DNA of 64,000 bases from Acidobacteriota bacterium (GTDB lineage Bacteria; Acidobacteriota; Terriglobia; Terriglobales; SCQP01): NCBI GenBank assembly GCA_027315185.1, contig DAHUYO010000004.1:3005-67004 (forward strand), written 5' to 3'. The notes under the pieces were generated by a model. That model was not told the DNA's origin. It searched no databases and worked only from the letters and a program-made list of their open reading frames with translations. This document shows, piece by piece, positions 327-19,228 of this stretch (the first letter of the stretch is position 1; every line of letters begins with the position of its first letter). The position numbers were made by a program, and so were the translations under genes.

Positions 327-400
327 TGCCGGGTCGTTCAATGGTAGGACAGCAGACTCTGGATCTGCCTATCGGGGTTCGAGTCCCTGCCCGGCAGCCA
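327..400 (+). tRNA. tRNA-Gln (anticodon CTG)
   Basis: Acceptor stem TGCCGGG/CCCGGCA, D loop with TGG, anticodon arm GCAGA-CTCTGGA-TCTGC, GTTCGAGTC T loop, encoded 3' CCA. Confidence 0.95.
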
Positions 401-1299: not shown

Positions 1300-2940
1300 T
1301 CACCCGGCCTGCGTGCCTTTCGCCAGCTGCTGCTCCTTGAAGCCGGTGTTGCAGTAGGGGTGCGTGAACTGGAGGTTGCTGAGGGATCCGGCCCCCCCGG
1401 CGGCGGCCCTCCCGACGTGGTCCTTTGACCTGCAACCGGGCGGCAGCCGAGCACCGCAGATCGCGCACCGCTCCCTGTGCTCGAGGATTTGGCGCACCAC
1501 GGCGGCCCGCTGGACAGATTTCGAAAACCGCCGCCGGCGGGTCGGATCTTCCGCTGCGGGCGCATCATCCCTGAGATCCTTGAGCCGCGTGTCAGCCTTG
1601 AGCCTCGCTATGATTTCGCCTTCGTCCTTTACGCCCTGGCGCATGCTGTCGAAGACGATGTTGAGCATCGCAACCTCGGACTCCAGCGGCCGGGTCCGGC
1701 TGCCCTTCATGTGGCCGAGCTGGTTGATAAACCCCTGGTGCCGAACCAGGAATTCCTCGAACTCCGCCCTCACTTCCGTAAACGGCGTAAGCATGCCCCT
1801 GTCGCGTAGCATGACGGCGAACTTGTGCGCGCCAAGGAACGCCGCCGCGTTGAGCGTACCGGATCCGCCGTACGCGTAGACGGCCATGTCCATTCCAAGC
1901 GAGCCGGGAGAGGTTGCGCCGTTGTCTCCTACGAGCGCGGCAACCTCGCCGACGCGCCTGAGGTATCGCAGGACGACGTCGCCGGTCTCGTCATCCTGCA
2001 GAGACGGGCCGCCCTTCTGCGACTTCCCCTTCGCCCGCCCCTCCTCCCACATAGCCGCAGACACCTCGTTGAAGTAGTTCACCATGTCAAGGACAAGGCG
2101 GAACGCCTCCTGGGAATACGGCTTCCCGGCCCGGGGAACGTCCGGGCTTTGGGAGTCGATCTCCCTAACCTGCCCGAAAACGATACCGTAGACTTTTTTG
2201 GCGAGGTCGGTGATCTCGGCTGCGCGCGGAAGGTGCGAATAATATTGGCCCCCGGCGCGCATGAGGGCCCTTGTAGCTAGCACGTTTGGCTTCTTTCGGG
2301 CCTTTGTGACTGAAAGCTCCGTGGGATCTATCTTCACGGGGAATTCATTGATCGCGAGAAACGAGCGCTCGGCCGCGCTGGCCCCACCCTCTACGGTCTG
2401 CACGTCGATAAGCCGGTTGCAACGGCGCCCCCGGCGCACCTTTTTTTGGTATCCCTCGTCCCCCGGGCCCCCCTCCGTCCCTGCGGCGAGGACCTCCTGG
2501 TAGGACCCGACGCGCTCGTGCATGAGCTTTCTGGTCTCATCGTGAAGCCTCTTGTAGTCGCCCGTCTCACCGCCATAGAACTTGCGCGAAATTGGCCCGT
2601 CGCCGTAGTCGTCGTTGACCCACCCAATGAGCACCCCCAGGCGGTGGGCGCCATCAATAACAAAAAAGCGCCCGGAGTCGGAGGAATGCCAGATGATTAC
2701 CGCCGGAATCAGCATGCCGTCCAAGAACGCCTCGACGAGCCGCACGATGGCCTCCGGCGTCCAATTATTGGTCGGCCGCTGGAAATCGGGCTTTCTGAGG
2801 TTGTTATAGACAAGGCCGGTAGCGGCGAGCTGCTGAAGCGTAATTGCCCCGGAACCCTGGTCAGCGGGCAGCCCCTTGTCGCCTGACTCGAAATCCTCCC
2901 GGGCGATGAGGGCGTCGAGGTTTACGCGGTGGGTGGGCAA
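1300..2940 (-). CDS. DUF262 (ParB/GmrS-like) domain protein with C-terminal HNH nuclease
   Basis: LRKPDFQR...W and VIDGAHRL motifs; C-terminal CxxC...DH...GG...N...HPYCN; GGAGGAG RBS before a TTG start. Confidence 0.8.
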   Translation of the reverse strand: MPTHRVNLDALIAREDFESGDKGLPADQGSGAITLQQLAATGLVYNNLRKPDFQRPTNNWTPEAIVRLVEAFLDGMLIPAVIIWHSSDSGRFFVIDGAHRLGVLIGWVNDDYGDGPISRKFYGGETGDYKRLHDETRKLMHERVGSYQEVLAAGTEGGPGDEGYQKKVRRGRRCNRLIDVQTVEGGASAAERSFLAINEFPVKIDPTELSVTKARKKPNVLATRALMRAGGQYYSHLPRAAEITDLAKKVYGIVFGQVREIDSQSPDVPRAGKPYSQEAFRLVLDMVNYFNEVSAAMWEEGRAKGKSQKGGPSLQDDETGDVVLRYLRRVGEVAALVGDNGATSPGSLGMDMAVYAYGGSGTLNAAAFLGAHKFAVMLRDRGMLTPFTEVRAEFEEFLVRHQGFINQLGHMKGSRTRPLESEVAMLNIVFDSMRQGVKDEGEIIARLKADTRLKDLRDDAPAAEDPTRRRRFSKSVQRAAVVRQILEHRERCAICGARLPPGCRSKDHVGRAAAGGAGSLSNLQFTHPYCNTGFKEQQLAKGTQAG

Positions 2941-5664: not shown

Positions 5665-5700
5665 CAGGCTGGCGACAAGCGGGGACGGCAGCTGCGCTGG

Positions 5701-5770
5701 GCAGCCGAGGACGGCTACCCTACTGGTGCGCGCGGCGCGGAGAAAGTGGGATGGGCGTCCTCGCCTGTCC
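5701..5770. repeat. Inverted REP pair (REPIN-like)
   Basis: GCAGCCGAGGACGGCTACCCTAC at 5701-5723 facing GTGGGATGGGCGTCCTCGCCTGTCC at 5746-5770. Confidence 0.65.
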
Positions 5771-5926
5771 GCTCTGTGAAAGCGGGGTATGCGCGCCGGC
5801 TCGGGCCGCGCCGCCAGGGGTTATGGCGACGCAACGCCGCAATTGGGCGAGACCGCGCAGGAATGCGGCGAAGCGGCGGTGAAGCAAATCGCCGCGCGAC
5901 CGCGCAGGCGTGGTACTTTAGCCGCC

Positions 5927-7357: not shown

Positions 7358-7550
7358 CCCTGGCGGCCAGCGACCGGCACCAGGCGGCCGCGTTTCTGCC
7401 CGCGTGCGGCAGCCGCGCCGCACGCGAGCGAGCCGTGCACGGACCCCCGGGCGGGAACCCACGCGGCTAAGTCACCAGGATGAGTCCTGCTCCGATCCTG
7501 TACCCACGACCGCCGCATAGGATGTTAGGCTGGCCCCATTCAGTGCTGTT

Positions 7551-8849
7551 ATGCCGCGCGTTGGCCAAATTAGTGATCGTGCGCGAACCCTGCTCCGGCC
7601 CGAAGGGCTCCCCTGGCTGACCGCCGCGGTCGGTGGGGGGTTCGTACCCGGCGCCGCCTACCTGCTCGCAGGGGAGCCGGGCATCGGCAAGACTACTCTC
7701 GCGATCCAGATACTAGGGGACTTCGCCAGGCAGGGCATGAAGGTTCTCTACATCAGCACAGAGCAGGGATTGGCCGACTTGCGCAGCGTGCTCTATCGGG
7801 TGCACGCCGATCAGGACGGCAGGCTGCCGGAGGAAATTGAGCGGAATTTTTTCTTAGACGACTCCGTCGAGGACGTTGACCGCCTGCCGCATTTTTTGGC
7901 GCACCGGGTCCTGCCGCCGGAGCAGGAATACCACGGCACGGAGGTGCTTGTCTTCGACTCGGTCCAGGGCAAGGGATTGGCCGCGGCCGCCACCAAGAAG
8001 TACCAAGCCCTCTACCAGTACATGGACAACGCGAAGGCGCACGGGCTGGTCTCCCTCCTGATCGGACACGTGACAAAAAGGGGCCAGATCGCCGGGCCGA
8101 AGGATCTTGAACACAACGTAGATGCCGTCGTTTACCTGCGCCGGGCCTTCCGACTCCGGCCCCTATTCGTGCCCAAGAACCGCTTCGGGCCGGCGGTGGT
8201 GGATCCGGTGGTTCTCGTCGCGGACGCGAGGGGCCGCCTCAAGCAGTCCGAGCTGGCAGCGGCGAAGAGCGCGGCGATATACGGCTATGCCGGTATCGGC
8301 GAAGAGTTCGCGGAGGCACAGGCATCCGTGAGCCTCCCGAAATACGGCAGCCGGTCCCAGTTGAACGCACCCTTCCTCCCGTCCAAGAAAATCCGACAGC
8401 TCCTGACCGTGCTGAGTACGCTAAAGGAGATCGACCTCTCCGACCTGTCCTACGAAATCAACTGCTACTTCCCGGCGAAGCAGGGCTACCAGGAGGAGCT
8501 TGACCTTCCGCTGGCGGTTGCACTGCTGAGCTCTTATCTCCAGCAGCCGGTTCCGGAAGGAAGCCTGTTCGTTGGAGAGCTCGACTTGATGCGGCGGATC
8601 CGGAACCCCGAGAAGCGCTATCTGGCTGTGCTGGCGACGCTGCTGGCCGAGGGCGGCGCCGCCCGCGTGCGGCAGGTCTTCCTAAGCGAGGAAGCCGCCG
8701 GTGAGCTGACGAGGATCAGGCCGAAGGAAGGCGGGCCGGCCGTAGGGGACCTCGTGCGGGTAACGGGAACGGCGGAGCTCCCCGCGCTATTGCGCCAGCT
8801 CTGGCCGGCGCTTTTCGAGGGCGGCCGCGCCGCGGCCGCGAGCGGATAG
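7551..8849 (+). CDS. RadA/Sms-like ATPase lacking the N-terminal C4 zinc finger
   Basis: Walker A GEPGIGKT, Walker B VFDSVQ, GHVTKxGxIAGP, LEHxVD, KNRFG, and a Lon/S5-like tail (DLPLAVALLSS, FVGELDL); in-frame TAG at 7518-7520 rules out an upstream extension. Confidence 0.85.
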   Translation: MPRVGQISDRARTLLRPEGLPWLTAAVGGGFVPGAAYLLAGEPGIGKTTLAIQILGDFARQGMKVLYISTEQGLADLRSVLYRVHADQDGRLPEEIERNFFLDDSVEDVDRLPHFLAHRVLPPEQEYHGTEVLVFDSVQGKGLAAAATKKYQALYQYMDNAKAHGLVSLLIGHVTKRGQIAGPKDLEHNVDAVVYLRRAFRLRPLFVPKNRFGPAVVDPVVLVADARGRLKQSELAAAKSAAIYGYAGIGEEFAEAQASVSLPKYGSRSQLNAPFLPSKKIRQLLTVLSTLKEIDLSDLSYEINCYFPAKQGYQEELDLPLAVALLSSYLQQPVPEGSLFVGELDLMRRIRNPEKRYLAVLATLLAEGGAARVRQVFLSEEAAGELTRIRPKEGGPAVGDLVRVTGTAELPALLRQLWPALFEGGRAAAASG

Positions 8850-8853
8850 GCAG

Positions 8854-9381
8854 GTGCCACGAGCACAGGCAAGAACGGGGGCGGCGCGCGGGCCGGCCGT
8901 GCCGAGAATAACCGCGGACTATATCTATTACTATTACGCGAAGCTGGTAATCGCGCCCGCGGCGGGCGAAGCGGGCAATTACCGCTTCATCATGGACCGC
9001 TACAAGCGGCTGCGCGATGGCACGCTGCAGATGTCCCATTATGATCGCGAACTGCTGGCGCTGGCCGGGGCTGACGCCTGCGCCTACTGCGGAGCGAAAG
9101 GCGACCTCCGTGCCGAGCCCGTCGTACCGCGGGCCTCGGGTGGGCCACTCGGTCTCCAGAACTCCGTGCTCACCTGCCAAGAGTGCGCTGCCGAGAAGGG
9201 CGTCCGCGACCTGGTCGAGTGGTGGTTGTCTCGCGCCGGGCGAGACCTGGACAACCTGCCGCGCCTCCCGATCGGCCTCTATTTGAAGATGGCCTTTGAG
9301 GCCCACCAAACACATTTCACGCTCAACTCCCCGTGCCAGTCCCTGGCGGGGCTGTTCCCACAGCACACGCGGGGCGGCTGA
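8854..9381 (+). CDS. HNH-fold zinc-binding protein with substituted catalytic residues
   Basis: CAYC...EPVVPxxxGG...N....CQECAAEKG follows HNH spacing, but H->P and N->A; start GTG 8854 or 8899. Confidence 0.7.
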   Translation: MPRAQARTGAARGPAVPRITADYIYYYYAKLVIAPAAGEAGNYRFIMDRYKRLRDGTLQMSHYDRELLALAGADACAYCGAKGDLRAEPVVPRASGGPLGLQNSVLTCQECAAEKGVRDLVEWWLSRAGRDLDNLPRLPIGLYLKMAFEAHQTHFTLNSPCQSLAGLFPQHTRGG

Positions 9382-9392
9382 CCCGGCAGAGG

Positions 9393-10607
9393 TCAGGCCC
9401 TGCGGCGGCGGGTGGCGGCGGCGGTGAGCAGGAGCACGCCGGTGGAGGCGACCAGAGGCAGGGCCAAAACCCAGCGCGGGCCGATGGCGGCGAGGCGGGA
9501 GGCGATCCAAGGGCCGGCGGAGCCGCCCAGCAGGGAAAGCGTGATGACGGCGCCGAAAGCGGTGCCGGTGTCGGCGGGGAAACGGTCGGCGGCCAAGCCC
9601 AGGCCGGTGGGATAGATGGCGGCAAAGCCGAAGCCCACCAGAAGAAACGCCGCGACCATCAGCGCATAGCTGCCGGCGGCGATGGCCAGCAGCGAGCCGG
9701 CGATGACCGCCGAGGCGGAAGCCCACAACGTCCAGCGATTGCCCAGCCAGCGCAGCCAGCCGACCGCTAGCAAGCGCCCGGCGCCGAGCGCGGCGCTCAG
9801 CACGACCAGCACCAAGGCGGCGCGGCGGACATCGGCGCCGAGGGCCGATTGGGCGATTTTGCCGGCCCAAACGAACATGGCGTTCTCCTGGCCGGATTCA
9901 AAGAACAGCAAGGTGCCGAACAGCCAGACGATGGGCTGATTCAGCACGCGCAGCAGATCGCGGGGATGGCTGCCAGGGCGCGAGGCCGCGGGAAAGGGCA
10001 GTAGGAGGACGGGCAGCAGCACCAGGGCGGTGAGGGCGGCGAGGGCGTGGATGACGGCGCCGGCGGCATGGGGCCCGGCGGCGGCCATCAGCAGCGGCGA
10101 GCCGATGGCGCCCAGGCTGAAGAAGAAGCCCAGCAAGTTGAGGGCGCGGCCGCGAGCCGCCGGATCCGCGTCCTGCGGGGTCAGGGCGGCCAGGTCAGCG
10201 ACCAGCGCGTTGGTCGCGGTGTTGAGCAAGCCGCCGCCGAGGCCGTAGACGAACGCCGCGGCGAGCAGCAGTTCGCTGCCGGCCAGGCCGGGCATGACCG
10301 CCAAGGCCGCGGCCACCAGGGCCAGACCGGCGGCGAGCACGGGACGGGCGCCGGCGCGATCCAGCCAAGGGCCGCAGACGACGGTGGCGGCGAGAATGCC
10401 GAGCAGCGGCAGCGACCCGAGATAGCCCGCTTGGGCGGTGGTGACGGACAGCGACGGCAGCCATGCGCCCATCAGCAACAGCACGATGCCGAAAATGAAC
10501 ATGCCGGCGTCGGCGGTGGCGAACAGCGGCCAACGCGGCCCGGAAGGGGCCGTGGTGGAGATGGCGCCGGGGATGGAAGGTCCGGTGGTCACGGTTGCGG
10601 CCATCAT
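9393..10607 (-). CDS. MFS transporter (FucP/TsgA-like sugar permease)
   Basis: About 12 hydrophobic helices, GPWLDRAGAR motif A. Confidence 0.85.
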   Translation of the reverse strand: MMAATVTTGPSIPGAISTTAPSGPRWPLFATADAGMFIFGIVLLLMGAWLPSLSVTTAQAGYLGSLPLLGILAATVVCGPWLDRAGARPVLAAGLALVAAALAVMPGLAGSELLLAAAFVYGLGGGLLNTATNALVADLAALTPQDADPAARGRALNLLGFFFSLGAIGSPLLMAAAGPHAAGAVIHALAALTALVLLPVLLLPFPAASRPGSHPRDLLRVLNQPIVWLFGTLLFFESGQENAMFVWAGKIAQSALGADVRRAALVLVVLSAALGAGRLLAVGWLRWLGNRWTLWASASAVIAGSLLAIAAGSYALMVAAFLLVGFGFAAIYPTGLGLAADRFPADTGTAFGAVITLSLLGGSAGPWIASRLAAIGPRWVLALPLVASTGVLLLTAAATRRRRA

Positions 10608-10745
10608 ACGGCAGGCAGCCAAGCGCCATTGCGCCGGCCGCGCCGTGGGCGAACGGATTCGAGCCGCTTGTTCAGGCCGCGCGGCGGCGGCGCCGTCGCG
10701 GCCGGGCGTTACGGCTTTTCGCTCCGCTCTGGTTCCGGCCCCGCG

Positions 10746-16498: not shown

Positions 16499-17563
16499 CT
16501 ATCGGCAGTTGACCGCGCAGGCCCCGACCAAATAGCCCAACATGCCGCCGACCACCAAATCCGAGGAGAAGTGCACCTTGCCGGTGAAGCGCAGCACCGA
16601 AATTGTCGTGGCCAGCCCGTAGCCCACCCACGCCACCCATTTATGGCGGGGATAGCGGTGGGCCAGGAACGAGGCGACGGTGAACGAGGCCATCGCGTGG
16701 CCGGAGGGAAAGCTGTTGCCGCCTTGGAAAAAGCCGCCGTCGCCATCCCCGGTCAAAAACGGCCGCTCCCGACCAGCAGCGAGCTTCAGCGCCTGCACCG
16801 CGGCAGTGGTATACCCGATGGCGGCGACGCCGGCCAGTAGCGTTTTCCATGGATTGTGATCGCGCCGCAGGAGGAAGCTGTCGGCCACGCCTTCGATCGG
16901 CAGGGCGATCAGCAGCAGATCGTTGGAGACGGTGCGGGAATCGTAGGCGCCGTCGTTGGGGGCAACCTGGGCGGAGGCGTTCTGGTCCACGAACGCGATC
17001 AGCGCCGCCGTGCCCAAGACCGCCGGAACGGTGAACTTCCAGTGATGCACCGCGGCGACGGGCAGATGCAATGTGCCGCGCCATAGGCGTCCGAGGGTGG
17101 CCCCGGGCGAGGCGTCGAAGCCGCCCGGAGGGGCTTCGACGGCGCTGGGACGGATCCATTTACCCGACAGTCCACTCGACAATGCACCCGAAAATGGCGC
17201 GACCGCCAAGGCGCCGCTTGCAAGCGCGACCGGGGCGCCGCTTGGGGCCGGGATTAGGGCGGCGGCCACCGCATCCGCCGGAGCGCCTGTCAAAGTGCCG
17301 GCTGGCGCGGCGGCCGCGCCGATGTTGGGAGCGGCGCTGGCCGGGGCGGCGGCCGGCGTCAAGGAATCCGCCGGCGGCGGCGTCTGGGCCGGCCGTTGCG
17401 CGTGAGCCGCAACGCAGAACGTTATCAGCAGGGCGGCGGCGAGATGGCTGCGGCGAACCCCGGGGAGCCGCGCGGCGGCGCGGCGGTTCGCGCCTGGGGC
17501 GGAGCGGTACAAATGGTCTTCCGAAGCGCCGCAACCGCCTGGCGCCGAACCCGATTGGTGCAT
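16499..17563 (-). CDS. PAP2 family phosphatase (paralog 2)
   Basis: KxxxGRERP, SFPSGHA, RxxxxxHFxSD; start uncertain. Confidence 0.8.
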   Translation of the reverse strand: MHQSGSAPGGCGASEDHLYRSAPGANRRAAARLPGVRRSHLAAALLITFCVAAHAQRPAQTPPPADSLTPAAAPASAAPNIGAAAAPAGTLTGAPADAVAAALIPAPSGAPVALASGALAVAPFSGALSSGLSGKWIRPSAVEAPPGGFDASPGATLGRLWRGTLHLPVAAVHHWKFTVPAVLGTAALIAFVDQNASAQVAPNDGAYDSRTVSNDLLLIALPIEGVADSFLLRRDHNPWKTLLAGVAAIGYTTAAVQALKLAAGRERPFLTGDGDGGFFQGGNSFPSGHAMASFTVASFLAHRYPRHKWVAWVGYGLATTISVLRFTGKVHFSSDLVVGGMLGYLVGACAVNCR

Positions 17564-17760
17564 TTCCGTCAGAGTAGCCGAGCCGCGGTCAGCGCGCCAT
17601 CCGGAAACGCTCGCGGTACGCAGTCCAAGCAGCCTACGCACGCTTGCGGCCATACAACCGTGCGTTGCCGTCCGCCAGCGCCATCTCCGCGCGCCCGGGC
17701 GCCGCGCCCGGAGGAAACCCGCGGGGCCGCCGGCGCGCCGCGGCGGCGGCACGGTCCCGG

Positions 17761-18717
17761 TCAACGGCAGGCTATGGCGCAACGGCCGACCAGGAATCCC
17801 ATCACGCCGCCGAAAAACACGTCCGCGGGAAAATGCTCCTTGGCGGTGACGCGAAGGATGGCGACCGCCGTGGCCAATCCGTAGCCAACCCGCGCCACCC
17901 ACTTTTGGCGGGGATAACGATAGGCGAGAAAGGAGGCCACGGTAAAGAAGGCCATGGCGTGGCCGGAGGGAAAACTGTTCCCGCCCGCGATGAAGGCGCC
18001 GTCACTGTCGCCGGGAAGGTAGGGGCGTTCGCGTCCGGCGGCCAGCTTCATGGCTTCCATCGCCGCGGTGGCGTATCCGATCGTGAACGCGCCCATCACC
18101 AGGGTGCGCCACGCATTGTGTTCGCGCCGCAGCAGCAGGCTGTCGGTGACGGCTTCCGCGGGCTCGGCGATGAGCAGCAGGTCGTTAGAGAGGTTTTTCG
18201 AATCATGCTCGCCGTCGTAGTTGGTAATGTGCGACGCAACCGGACGGTCCACGAAGGCAATCAGGGCGGCAGTGGTCAACACCACCGCGGCGGTAGGCTT
18301 CCAGTGCTTGACGGCGGCGGCGGGCAGGCGGAGCGTACCATGCCAAAGGCGGGACAACGTGGGGATCGGGGCGGTGCGGAGCGGAGCGGACGGCGGCTGC
18401 CCGAACGGCGCAACCCGGGGGAGCGCCGCTCCATCCTGAGCGCCGCTGCTCGGAGCGGGGCGGACCCAGCCCGCAGACCGAGGCTCCGGATGTCGCGATA
18501 TCGCCGGGAGCGGAGAGAACTCGCGTTCTCGCCCGCGCTCCGCGCGCGGCGCGGGAAAGCGCCGCGCTAAAGCGGGCATGGAGCGAAGCGGTGCGGCCCG
18601 CGGCGCGTGCCGGGTGGGCGCGACGCCGGCGGTCCGCGGCCCGCAGGCGGCGGGCGCCTGCGCCCAGGGGGCGAGCGAGAACCAGACCACCAGCACCGCC
18701 GCCGCCGATTTTGCCAC
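17761..18717 (-). CDS. PAP2 family phosphatase (paralog 1)
   Basis: KLAAGRERP, SFPSGHA, RVTAKEHFPAD; start uncertain. Confidence 0.8.
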   Translation of the reverse strand: MAKSAAAVLVVWFSLAPWAQAPAACGPRTAGVAPTRHAPRAAPLRSMPALARRFPAPRAERGREREFSPLPAISRHPEPRSAGWVRPAPSSGAQDGAALPRVAPFGQPPSAPLRTAPIPTLSRLWHGTLRLPAAAVKHWKPTAAVVLTTAALIAFVDRPVASHITNYDGEHDSKNLSNDLLLIAEPAEAVTDSLLLRREHNAWRTLVMGAFTIGYATAAMEAMKLAAGRERPYLPGDSDGAFIAGGNSFPSGHAMAFFTVASFLAYRYPRQKWVARVGYGLATAVAILRVTAKEHFPADVFFGGVMGFLVGRCAIACR

Positions 18718-18763
18718 GCGCCATCCAGATGCCCGGCGGCGCCGCCGCGTCGCCCCGGCCGCG

Positions 18764-19228
18764 TTAAGCCGCGGGCGCGATGACCACGAACCGGCCTTGT
18801 GCCCGGACCAGAACCTCGCCCGCAGCGGAACGGATCTCCGCGCGCTGGAAAAGATTGCGGCCCTGGCGCTCCACCGCTTCGGCTTCGACCACGATCTCGG
18901 CGTCAACGGGCGTGGGGCGGAGATACTCGATCCGCAGTTCGGCGGTGACGGCGCGCGCCTGTTCAAAGCGCGCCAGCTTGCCCATGGCCTCATCCACCAG
19001 CACGGCGATGATGCCGCCGTGGGCCATGCCGCCGCTGCCTTGGTACGGCGGCCCGAGAACGAACCGGCCGCGAATGCGGCGCTGCGCATGGTCCTGCTGG
19101 AAGGTCAACTGCATGCCGCGCGGATTGGCGCCGCCGCAGCCGAAACAAGGGTTCTCGGGGCGCGGAGGCAAAGGCTGGAGGTCCGGACCGGCAGGCTGCG
19201 GGGTGGAGGAATCGGCCGACGAGGTCAT
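18764..19228 (-). CDS. PaaI/hotdog thioesterase
   Basis: CFGCG..NPxG, HGGIIAVLVDEAM. Confidence 0.9.
   Translation of the reverse strand: MTSSADSSTPQPAGPDLQPLPPRPENPCFGCGGANPRGMQLTFQQDHAQRRIRGRFVLGPPYQGSGGMAHGGIIAVLVDEAMGKLARFEQARAVTAELRIEYLRPTPVDAEIVVEAEAVERQGRNLFQRAEIRSAAGEVLVRAQGRFVVIAPAA

What the first reader, a model, noticed from the sequence alone, without database searches (positions are those of the whole stretch)
7551..9381. Two-gene cassette: zinc-finger-less RadA/Sms paralog plus HNH-fold partner, a candidate undescribed DNA-processing or defence system
Seen: a 432-aa protein keeps the RadA/Sms core (Walker A/B, GHVTK, KNRFG) and a divergent Lon/S5-like tail but begins directly at the ATPase domain. 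An in-frame TAG at 7518 excludes a missed N-terminal C4 zinc finger. It is followed at 4 bp by a co-oriented HNH-fold gene. The pair sits between unrelated carbohydrate genes and by eye uses different codons (more CTC/AAG/CTT). Established: RadA/Sms is a hexameric branch-migration helicase whose zinc finger couples it to RecA. Inference: this is an acquired, RecA-uncoupled ATPase working with a dedicated partner, an ATPase+nuclease-fold layout typical of anti-phage modules. I know of no named system with this composition.
Basis: partly seen in the sequence, partly recalled or inferred. Interest (0 to 1): 0.8.

Follow-up and report, generated by a model that had tools for sequence, protein, structure and literature searches.

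The report
RadA-derived motor with dead-nuclease partner
A mobile two-gene cassette pairs a relative of the DNA-repair motor RadA, lacking its zinc finger and its coupling arginine, with a small zinc protein whose nuclease site has decayed and which is predicted to bind the motor; its relatives often sit among anti-phage genes, so it is likely an undescribed, still untested defence module.

Summary
Observation confirmed. A (7551-8849) is a RadA/Sms-derived ATPase without the C4 finger. It belongs to a family set apart from canonical RadA by a long, well-supported branch. B (8854-9381) has an HNH fold but lacks the catalytic residues. A lies directly upstream in 69 of 72 B loci that have room for it, and A and B divergences track each other (r=0.91). 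In 19 of 31 long loci a defence-type gene lies within three genes, against 0 of 28 canonical radA loci. The same slot holds mazEF, or its remnant, in two same-genus genomes. A:B binding is predicted (0.66, best control 0.05) on the Lon-domain loop where RadA's coupling Arg301 is replaced by Gly (117 of 120). No library match or paper describing the pair was found. The scan noted the same cassette before in another genome. Function is untested.

The parts
7551..8849 (+). Gene A: zinc-finger-less RadA/Sms-derived protein, RecA-type ATPase domain plus Lon-like C-terminal domain (432 aa)
   Evidence: best PDB 5LKM/8RXC, E 6e-34; best fold 8RXC, E 5e-28
7518..7520 (+). In-frame TAG that excludes an N-terminal zinc-finger extension
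7671..7694 (+). Walker A GEPGIGKT (residues 41-48)
   Evidence: 119 of 120 homologues
8064..8078 (+). GHVTK DNA-binding loop (T175/K176 = S. pneumoniae RadA T215/K216)
   Evidence: H-[VI]-T-[KQ] in 120 of 120
8175..8189 (+). KNRFG motif (lysine piston / arginine finger)
   Evidence: 115 of 120
8292..8303 (+). G-I-G-E loop (248-251): Gly250 replaces RadA's coupling Arg301; predicted docking site for B
8610..8651 (+). Lon-domain helix (354-367), second part of the predicted B interface
   Evidence: Y357 and L358 invariant
8854..9381 (+). Gene B: HNH-fold C4-zinc protein with a decayed active site and conserved helical flanks (IxYYYAKLVI; PRxPxGLYLK); alternative start 8899
9079..9186 (+). CxxC...N...CxxC treble-clef/HNH core; His site is Pro and metal-ligand site is Ala in this copy; residues 83-91 form the predicted interface
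7379..9399 (.). Variable slot between the PIG-L and MFS genes; holds mazE-mazF in G001, a ~90-bp mazF remnant in G003, and the same A-B cassette in L107
5789..7357 (+). Left flank, PIG-L family deacetylase (host gene, conserved in genus)
9393..10622 (-). Right flank, MFS transporter (host gene, conserved in genus)

Best explanation
A and B form a co-inherited, horizontally spread two-gene cassette that likely acts in defence against phages or other invading DNA: A is likely a ring-shaped ATP-driven DNA motor cut loose from RecA, and B is predicted to be its non-catalytic regulatory subunit rather than a nuclease. Shown: the anatomy, tight linkage, co-divergence, sporadic spread, occupancy of a variable slot, and enrichment beside defence genes. 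Predicted: B's former active-site loop docks on A's Lon-domain loop, where canonical RadA carries Arg301, the residue that couples ATP hydrolysis to DNA binding. Inferred: A has lost both built-in controls (the RecA-binding finger and the coupling arginine), and B restores or gates the coupling. B's other conserved surface (its N- and C-terminal helices, not part of the predicted interface) would sense an unknown trigger. The switched-on motor would then unwind or strip ssDNA-containing intermediates (forks, D-loops) of the invader, with any cutting done by neighbouring RM/BREX-type systems or not needed. Estimated odds: defence role about 0.7; B as non-catalytic regulator, given that, about 0.75.
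For: Linkage: 69 of 72 B loci with >200 bp upstream have A adjacent; the commonest A-B gap is 3 bp; Mantel r=0.91 over 43 non-identical pairs, 0 of 999 permutations as high; purifying selection against L107 (A: 129 synonymous vs 25 non-synonymous codons; B: 51 vs 21). Distinct family: all 38 finger-bearing rows lie on one side of a 1.37-long branch, SH-aLRT 100, quick tree. Spread: 4 of 401 phylum genomes, with source names from Armatimonadota, Gemmatimonadota, KSB1, Bacillota, Chloroflexota, Deltaproteobacteria, Cloacimonadota and Acidobacteriota. Context: by my reading of Pfam hits, 31 of 63 loci, and 19 of 31 loci of 8 kb or more, have an RM, BREX-related, GmrSD, OLD/AAA, SIR2/STAND, AbiE or RT-type gene within three ORFs, against 0 of 28 canonical radA loci. 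Five loci lie between the SNF2 helicase and DUF1156 methylase of DUF499 BREX-related systems. The slot holds mazEF in G001. Motor: Walker A/B, catalytic Glu, HVTK and KNRFG are conserved, and the Lon-ring pair E306-R400 is kept as invariant E255/R351. Binding: score 0.66, best of 3 controls 0.05 (the mark was reached by 116 of 157 solved and 2 of 215 mismatched pairs); runs agree in at least 97% of contacts, partner pLDDT at least 81. The Arg301 site is R in 75 of 77 canonical proteins and G in 117 of 120 clade members; R301A uncouples the ATPase and nearly abolishes helicase activity (PMC11612176 passages). C4 mutants lose RecA binding yet still unwind DNA (PMC6755099 passages).
Against: No functional or expression data. 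Defence evidence is guilt by association: loci are not independent, many come from similar habitats, the classification is mine, and the control is mostly Alphaproteobacteria. 32 of 63 loci show no strict defence neighbour (many are short). This copy sits among carbohydrate genes; the nearest defence-type gene is 4.6 kb away. A occurs without B in 3 loci (L027, L186, L029), and L186 keeps the G-I-G loop. B sits behind an SMC-like ATPase in L176. His is retained at the catalytic site in 49 of 120 B homologues. The complex was modelled 1:1 only, so fit within a hexamer is untested. No canonical radA was found in the 31 genomes of this order searched, which leaves a repair role open.
Confidence: 0.52

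Rival explanations
1. Toxin-antitoxin / abortive-infection switch: A, unbraked by the loss of the finger and Arg301, would be toxic (futile ATP burning or unwinding of host forks), and B would neutralise it until a phage factor displaces B.
For: The predicted docking site is the loop that controls futile ATP hydrolysis; the genes are tightly spaced; a mazEF pair occupies the same slot in G001.
Against: A occurs without B in L027, L186 and L029; the deeper finger-less clades seem not to carry B (G004); B is highly conserved outside the predicted interface, more than simple blocking needs.
Confidence: 0.16
2. A mobile repair or recombination accessory: a RecA-independent branch-migration motor that helps islands move, or makes up for a lost radA.
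For: It is the only radA-like gene found in this genome, and none of 31 genomes of the order has canonical radA; 3 of 5 carriers tested lack canonical radA; integrase, resolvase or transposase neighbours occur in L027, L028, L121, L131, L180.
Against: 29 of 30 relatives have no RadA-like gene covering the ATPase and Lon parts at all; 2 of 5 carriers have canonical radA too; the zinc finger is required for repair in E. coli (PMC4357459 passages); neighbours are mostly defence genes, not transfer genes.
Confidence: 0.13
3. An active helicase-nuclease: A feeds DNA to B, which cuts it.
For: HNH fold; weak PtuB profile hits in 33 of 61 aligned B members, best E 7e-7; His kept in 49 of 120; two members (P0218, P0228) are fully intact.
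Against: Metal-ligand N/H in 7 of 120, and an acidic residue before the His site in 4 of 120; this copy has Pro and Ala at the key sites; the active-site loop is buried in the predicted interface.
Confidence: 0.09
4. An auxiliary part of neighbouring RM/BREX-related systems that has no activity on its own.
For: Nested between the helicase and methylase of DUF499 systems in 5 loci, behind brxL in L178, and beside type I RM genes in L158, L163, L167, L174.
Against: Host systems differ from locus to locus; other cargo (GmrSD, SIR2, RmuC, OLD, Fic) fills the same slots, as expected of hotspots; in this window it stands alone.
Confidence: 0.1

Closest known systems
Bacterial RadA/Sms (TIGR00416; S. 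pneumoniae RadA, PDB 5LKM/8RXC)
   Same: RecA-type ATPase plus Lon-like domain; Walker A/B, HVTK DNA loop, KNRFG; Lon-ring pair E306-R400 kept.
   Different: No C4 finger; coupling Arg301 replaced by Gly; 115 vs 403 bits; separate long branch; sporadic; dedicated partner gene; defence rather than housekeeping neighbours.
Septu (PtuAB) and other ATPase + HNH defence dyads
   Same: Two-gene layout of ATPase then HNH-fold protein; weak PtuB hits in many B homologues. The Septu architecture itself is recalled.
   Different: The ATPase is RadA-type, not ABC/SMC-like; no PtuA hit; HNH catalytic residues lost; this B has no PADLOC hit.
McrA/Cas9-type HNH endonucleases with C4 zinc
   Same: CxxC...N...CxxC core; fold matches to Cas9 HNH domains (Z up to 6.1, rmsd 5.3 over 83 residues).
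   Different: D-H and N/H ligands missing in nearly all members; extra conserved helical flanks; active-site loop predicted as a protein interface.
DUF499-centred BREX-related systems and BrxL (PMC12839542)
   Same: Frequent host locus; BrxL also carries a Lon-like domain (weak hit, E 0.017).
   Different: A and B are not core components; the main text has no mention of RadA/Sms; supplements could not be read.

Membership tests
RadA/Sms | N-terminal C4 zinc finger | tested here: not met
   (0 of 119 homologues) vs 77 of 77 canonical
RadA/Sms | RecA-like ATPase with Walker A/B | tested here: met
RadA/Sms | KNRxG motif | tested here: met
   115 of 120
RadA/Sms | C-terminal Lon-like domain | tested here: met
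   (aligned to residue 355; 5LKQ hit)
RadA/Sms | TIGR00416 equivalog cut-off | tested here: not met
   114.9 vs 403.05 bits
RadA/Sms | Lon-ATPase coupling Arg301 | tested here: not met
   Gly in 117 of 120; Arg in 75 of 77 canonical
RadA/Sms | Hexamer, 5'-3' helicase activity, RecA binding | not testable with these tools
   only inferred from conserved residues
HNH endonuclease | Beta-beta-alpha / C4-zinc fold | tested here: met
   (atlas feature score 0.98 to HNH clusters); fold hits are HNH domains but weak
HNH endonuclease | Catalytic His and metal ligands | tested here: not met
   Pro/Ala in this copy; full set in 2 of 120
Septu (PtuAB) | PtuA ABC-type ATPase | tested here: not met
   no PtuA hit; best structure is RadA
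Septu (PtuAB) | PtuB HNH nuclease | tested here: inconclusive
   no hit for this B; weak hits for 33 of 61 homologues, probably the shared HNH core
Anti-phage defence system (functional class) | Enrichment beside defence genes and patchy spread | tested here: met
   19 of 31 vs 0 of 28; 4 of 401
Anti-phage defence system (functional class) | Protection in a phage challenge | not testable with these tools
   experiment needed

The most novel reading that the evidence does not exclude
A new class of anti-phage system built on a co-opted RadA ring motor. The RecA-binding finger and the coupling arginine were discarded, and a dead HNH nuclease became an external switch that plugs its old active site into the motor's coupling loop. 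It would be the best-defined member of a wider, undescribed radiation of finger-less RadA motors with exchangeable partners.
Probability: 0.4. Interest if true: 0.88.

Novelty: new variant of a known kind. Interest (0 to 1): 0.72.

Why it matters
RadA is described only as a RecA-linked repair and transformation helicase. A family that has shed both of its controls and gained a pseudo-nuclease subunit would show a recombination motor recruited into immunity, and an HNH active site reused as a protein switch. The cassette is small (1.8 kb), stands alone, has a named carrier (Chthonomonas calidirosea), and gives residue-level predictions (Walker A Lys47, Gly250 loop, B residues 83-91), so it can be tested directly. 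It also offers a natural probe of how the RadA Lon ring couples ATP use to DNA movement.

Tried and rejected
Missed zinc finger or wrong start: rejected. Second radA in this genome: not found by tblastn or TIGR00416, nor by the finger family PF18073 (0 of 21 genomes over the cut-off); the genome is 86% complete. Viral contigs: one A locus; none for B or for the G004 sister protein. No clade member in 72,556 plasmid or 50,697 phage records; only ~28% hits over part of the query, annotated as radA where annotated. No target-site duplication or terminal repeat at the slot. No consensus promoter upstream of A. Expression: one RNA run with a 0.07 word share gave two 151-nt contigs at depth 2, which is no evidence either way. 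Fold searches for B gave no match at E<=0.001 and a best Z of 6.1; the helical flanks remain unassigned. The tree is the quick version; the careful search did not finish. Atlas search of the G004 partner did not complete. Literature searches finding no description: 0 papers; 4 papers, none on this pair by listing; listing only; term searches in PMC12839542, 10.1101/2025.01.08.631966 and PMC12881386 found no RadA/Sms mention. Supplements of PMC12839542 could not be read and may list the pair as a neighbour. Subscription journals are not covered.

Full report
Observation. The two ORFs are as described. A (7551-8849, 432 aa) starts 33 bp after an in-frame TAG; B (8854-9381) starts 4 bp after A's stop. 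A matches TIGR00416 only from profile position 84, at 114.9 bits against a cut-off of 403. Its best solved relatives by sequence and by fold are pneumococcal RadA 5LKM/8RXC. B scores below the Pfam HNH cut-offs. Neither has a convincing PADLOC match. The codon difference is real against most neighbouring genes but ordinary genome-wide, using a heuristic set of 2457 long ORFs.

A defines a family. The 120 best homologues listed are at least 50% identical and nearly all start M-P-[RK]. None of the 119 with a Walker A has CxxC upstream of it. All 77 canonical radA loci fetched have the finger, and none has B nearby. In a quick maximum-likelihood tree of 93 ATPase-Lon cores, a 1.37-long branch (SH-aLRT 100) separates all 38 finger-bearing rows, plus 5 rows scored finger-less, from the other 50 finger-less rows. 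The family therefore sits inside a wider finger-less radiation. The catalytic machinery is kept: Walker A 119, catalytic Glu 119, Walker B 120, HxT[KQ] 120 and KNRxG 115, each of 120. The alignment to pneumococcal RadA maps its DNA-binding T215/K216 and its Lon-ring pair E306-R400 (PMC11612176, passages) to conserved T175/K176 and invariant E255/R351.

B is an HNH fold with a decayed site. Four cysteines and the structural Asn are invariant in 61 aligned members, and the model is confident (pLDDT 90.8). Across 120 homologues the catalytic His is kept in 49, the metal-ligand N/H in 7, and all three positions in 2. This copy has Pro and Ala at those sites; an ordinary HNH from locus L149 parsed correctly as a control. 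The best-conserved parts are the helical flanks.

The pair travels together. Of 80 loci holding B, 72 have more than 200 bp upstream, and 69 of those have A adjacent. The three exceptions are L028 (a transposase inserted between A and B), L176 (an SMC-like ATPase upstream) and L184 (a truncated B). Pairwise identities of A and B correlate (Mantel r=0.91, 43 pairs; 0.88 without close pairs), and both genes are under purifying selection against L107. A occurs without B in L027, L186 and L029.

It is acquired, not inherited. No other radA was found in this 86%-complete genome. None of 31 genomes of the order passes the radA cut-off; only one relative, G004, has a RadA-like gene, from a sister clade with a different neighbour. 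That tally includes six genomes flagged unpublished (G002, G012, G013, G015, G016, G018). In a 401-genome phylum sample the clade occurs four times, with B adjacent in the three other carriers. Two of five carriers tested also have canonical radA. In same-genus G001 the PIG-L/MFS slot holds mazE and a frameshifted mazF, in G003 a roughly 90-bp mazF remnant, and in L107 the same cassette. This slot result does not rest on the unpublished genomes.

Neighbourhood. I scanned ORFs of at least 130 aa within three positions of the cassette in 63 loci. I left out six near-duplicate loci (L110, L115, L118, L119, L155, L175) and one antisense ORF, and added 10 further ORFs that did not affect the count. 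By my classification, 31 of 63 loci, and 19 of 31 loci of 8 kb or more, have a strict defence-type neighbour: type I or Eco57I RM, other methylases, Mrr, BglII, GmrSD, HNH_2, NucS, SNF2-NOV_C helicase with DUF1156 methylase, BrxL, OLD/AAA_13/15, SIR2-STAND, Schlafen, AbiE or RT. RmuC, PIN, DUF2130 or SbcCD-like genes alone were not counted. The same scan of 146 neighbours of 28 canonical radA loci gave none; they were alr, cvpA, purF, dnaB, clpC and ispD, with one PIN and one metallophosphoesterase. G062 has Cas3 1.9 kb downstream, and G390 has a DprA-like gene and a DEAD/MZB helicase downstream; these were not counted. The loci are not independent and the control is taxonomically narrow.

Mechanism. 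The A:B model scored 0.66 against a best control of 0.05. The mark was reached by 116 of 157 solved and 2 of 215 mismatched pairs; runs agree in at least 97% of contacts, and partner pLDDT is at least 81. I know of no solved RadA-HNH complex it could have recalled (my own knowledge). The interface joins B's former active-site loop (83-91, 70-72) to A residues 248-251 and 354-367. Position 250 aligns with RadA Arg301, which is Arg in 75 of 77 canonical proteins and Gly in 117 of 120 clade members. In pneumococcal RadA, R301A causes futile, DNA-independent ATP hydrolysis and nearly abolishes unwinding (PMC11612176, passages). B. subtilis C4 mutants lose RecA binding, gain ssDNA-stimulated ATPase and still unwind 5'-3' (PMC6755099, abstract and passages). 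The finger is required for repair in E. coli (PMC4357459, abstract and passages). I infer that A has lost both internal controls and that B replaces them from outside, gating a RecA-independent ring motor against invading DNA. All 65 B-linked A copies parsed have G-[IVM]-G in this loop. Two of the three B-less close copies have changed it (L027, L029), while L186 has not, which is suggestive only. The trigger, the substrate and the outcome (direct interference or abortive infection) are not shown.

Known systems and novelty. It works like a RadA-type ring motor and is laid out like ATPase-HNH dyads such as Septu (recalled), but it fails defining tests for both. Searches, and term searches of three papers' main texts, found no description. 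The BREX paper's supplement could not be read, PMC5512693 was seen only as a search listing, and subscription journals are not covered. The scan's own notes hold one earlier report of the same cassette in another genome with a similar reading. I had recorded my reading before seeing it, and it is not independent support.

Verdict. A real, conserved, mobile two-gene module that I could not find described, probably defensive, with a specific and testable mechanism. New variant of a known kind; interest 0.72.

Noticed in passing
G000 and 30 relatives: Canonical radA, often called universal in bacteria, was not found over the cut-off in any of the 31 genomes of this order searched (26 of them at least 90% complete), while it is common elsewhere in the phylum.
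   Followed up: partly
window 1300-2940 (-): A GmrSD_N (ParB-like) plus C-terminal HNH gene, absent at this position in G001, about 0.9 kb from a tRNA-Gln (window 327-400): a second variable defence-type slot, 4.6 kb from the cassette.
   Followed up: partly
L232:8147-8730 (G001) and L231 (G003): mazE-mazF (mazF frameshifted) or its 3' remnant fills the same PIG-L/MFS slot.
   Followed up: yes
L008 / L220:8034-10401 (G004); P0250-P0252, P0280: Sister clade of finger-less RadA; in G004 it is followed by a 382-aa protein that looks coiled-coil and has no Pfam match. P0252 is fused to an ArsR-type HTH.
   Followed up: partly
window 5678-5775: A ~95-bp dispersed intergenic repeat with many copies in this genome and in G001/G003.
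   Followed up: no
G000:C16, C54, C83: One full recA plus two partial recA matches on other contigs: a second, split recA or contamination.
   Followed up: no
L176:526-3560: A B homologue directly behind an 827-aa SMC/Rad50-like ATPase instead of A, followed by AbiEi/AbiEii.
   Followed up: partly
P0218, P0228: Two B-family proteins keep an intact HNH catalytic set (D/E-H...N), possibly close to the ancestral active state.
   Followed up: partly
L028:1239-5309: A Mu-type transposase insertion separates A from B by about 4 kb.
   Followed up: no
window 16499-19089 (-): Two tandem, similar ORFs with motifs that look like PAP2 phosphatases (recalled, not scanned).
   Followed up: no
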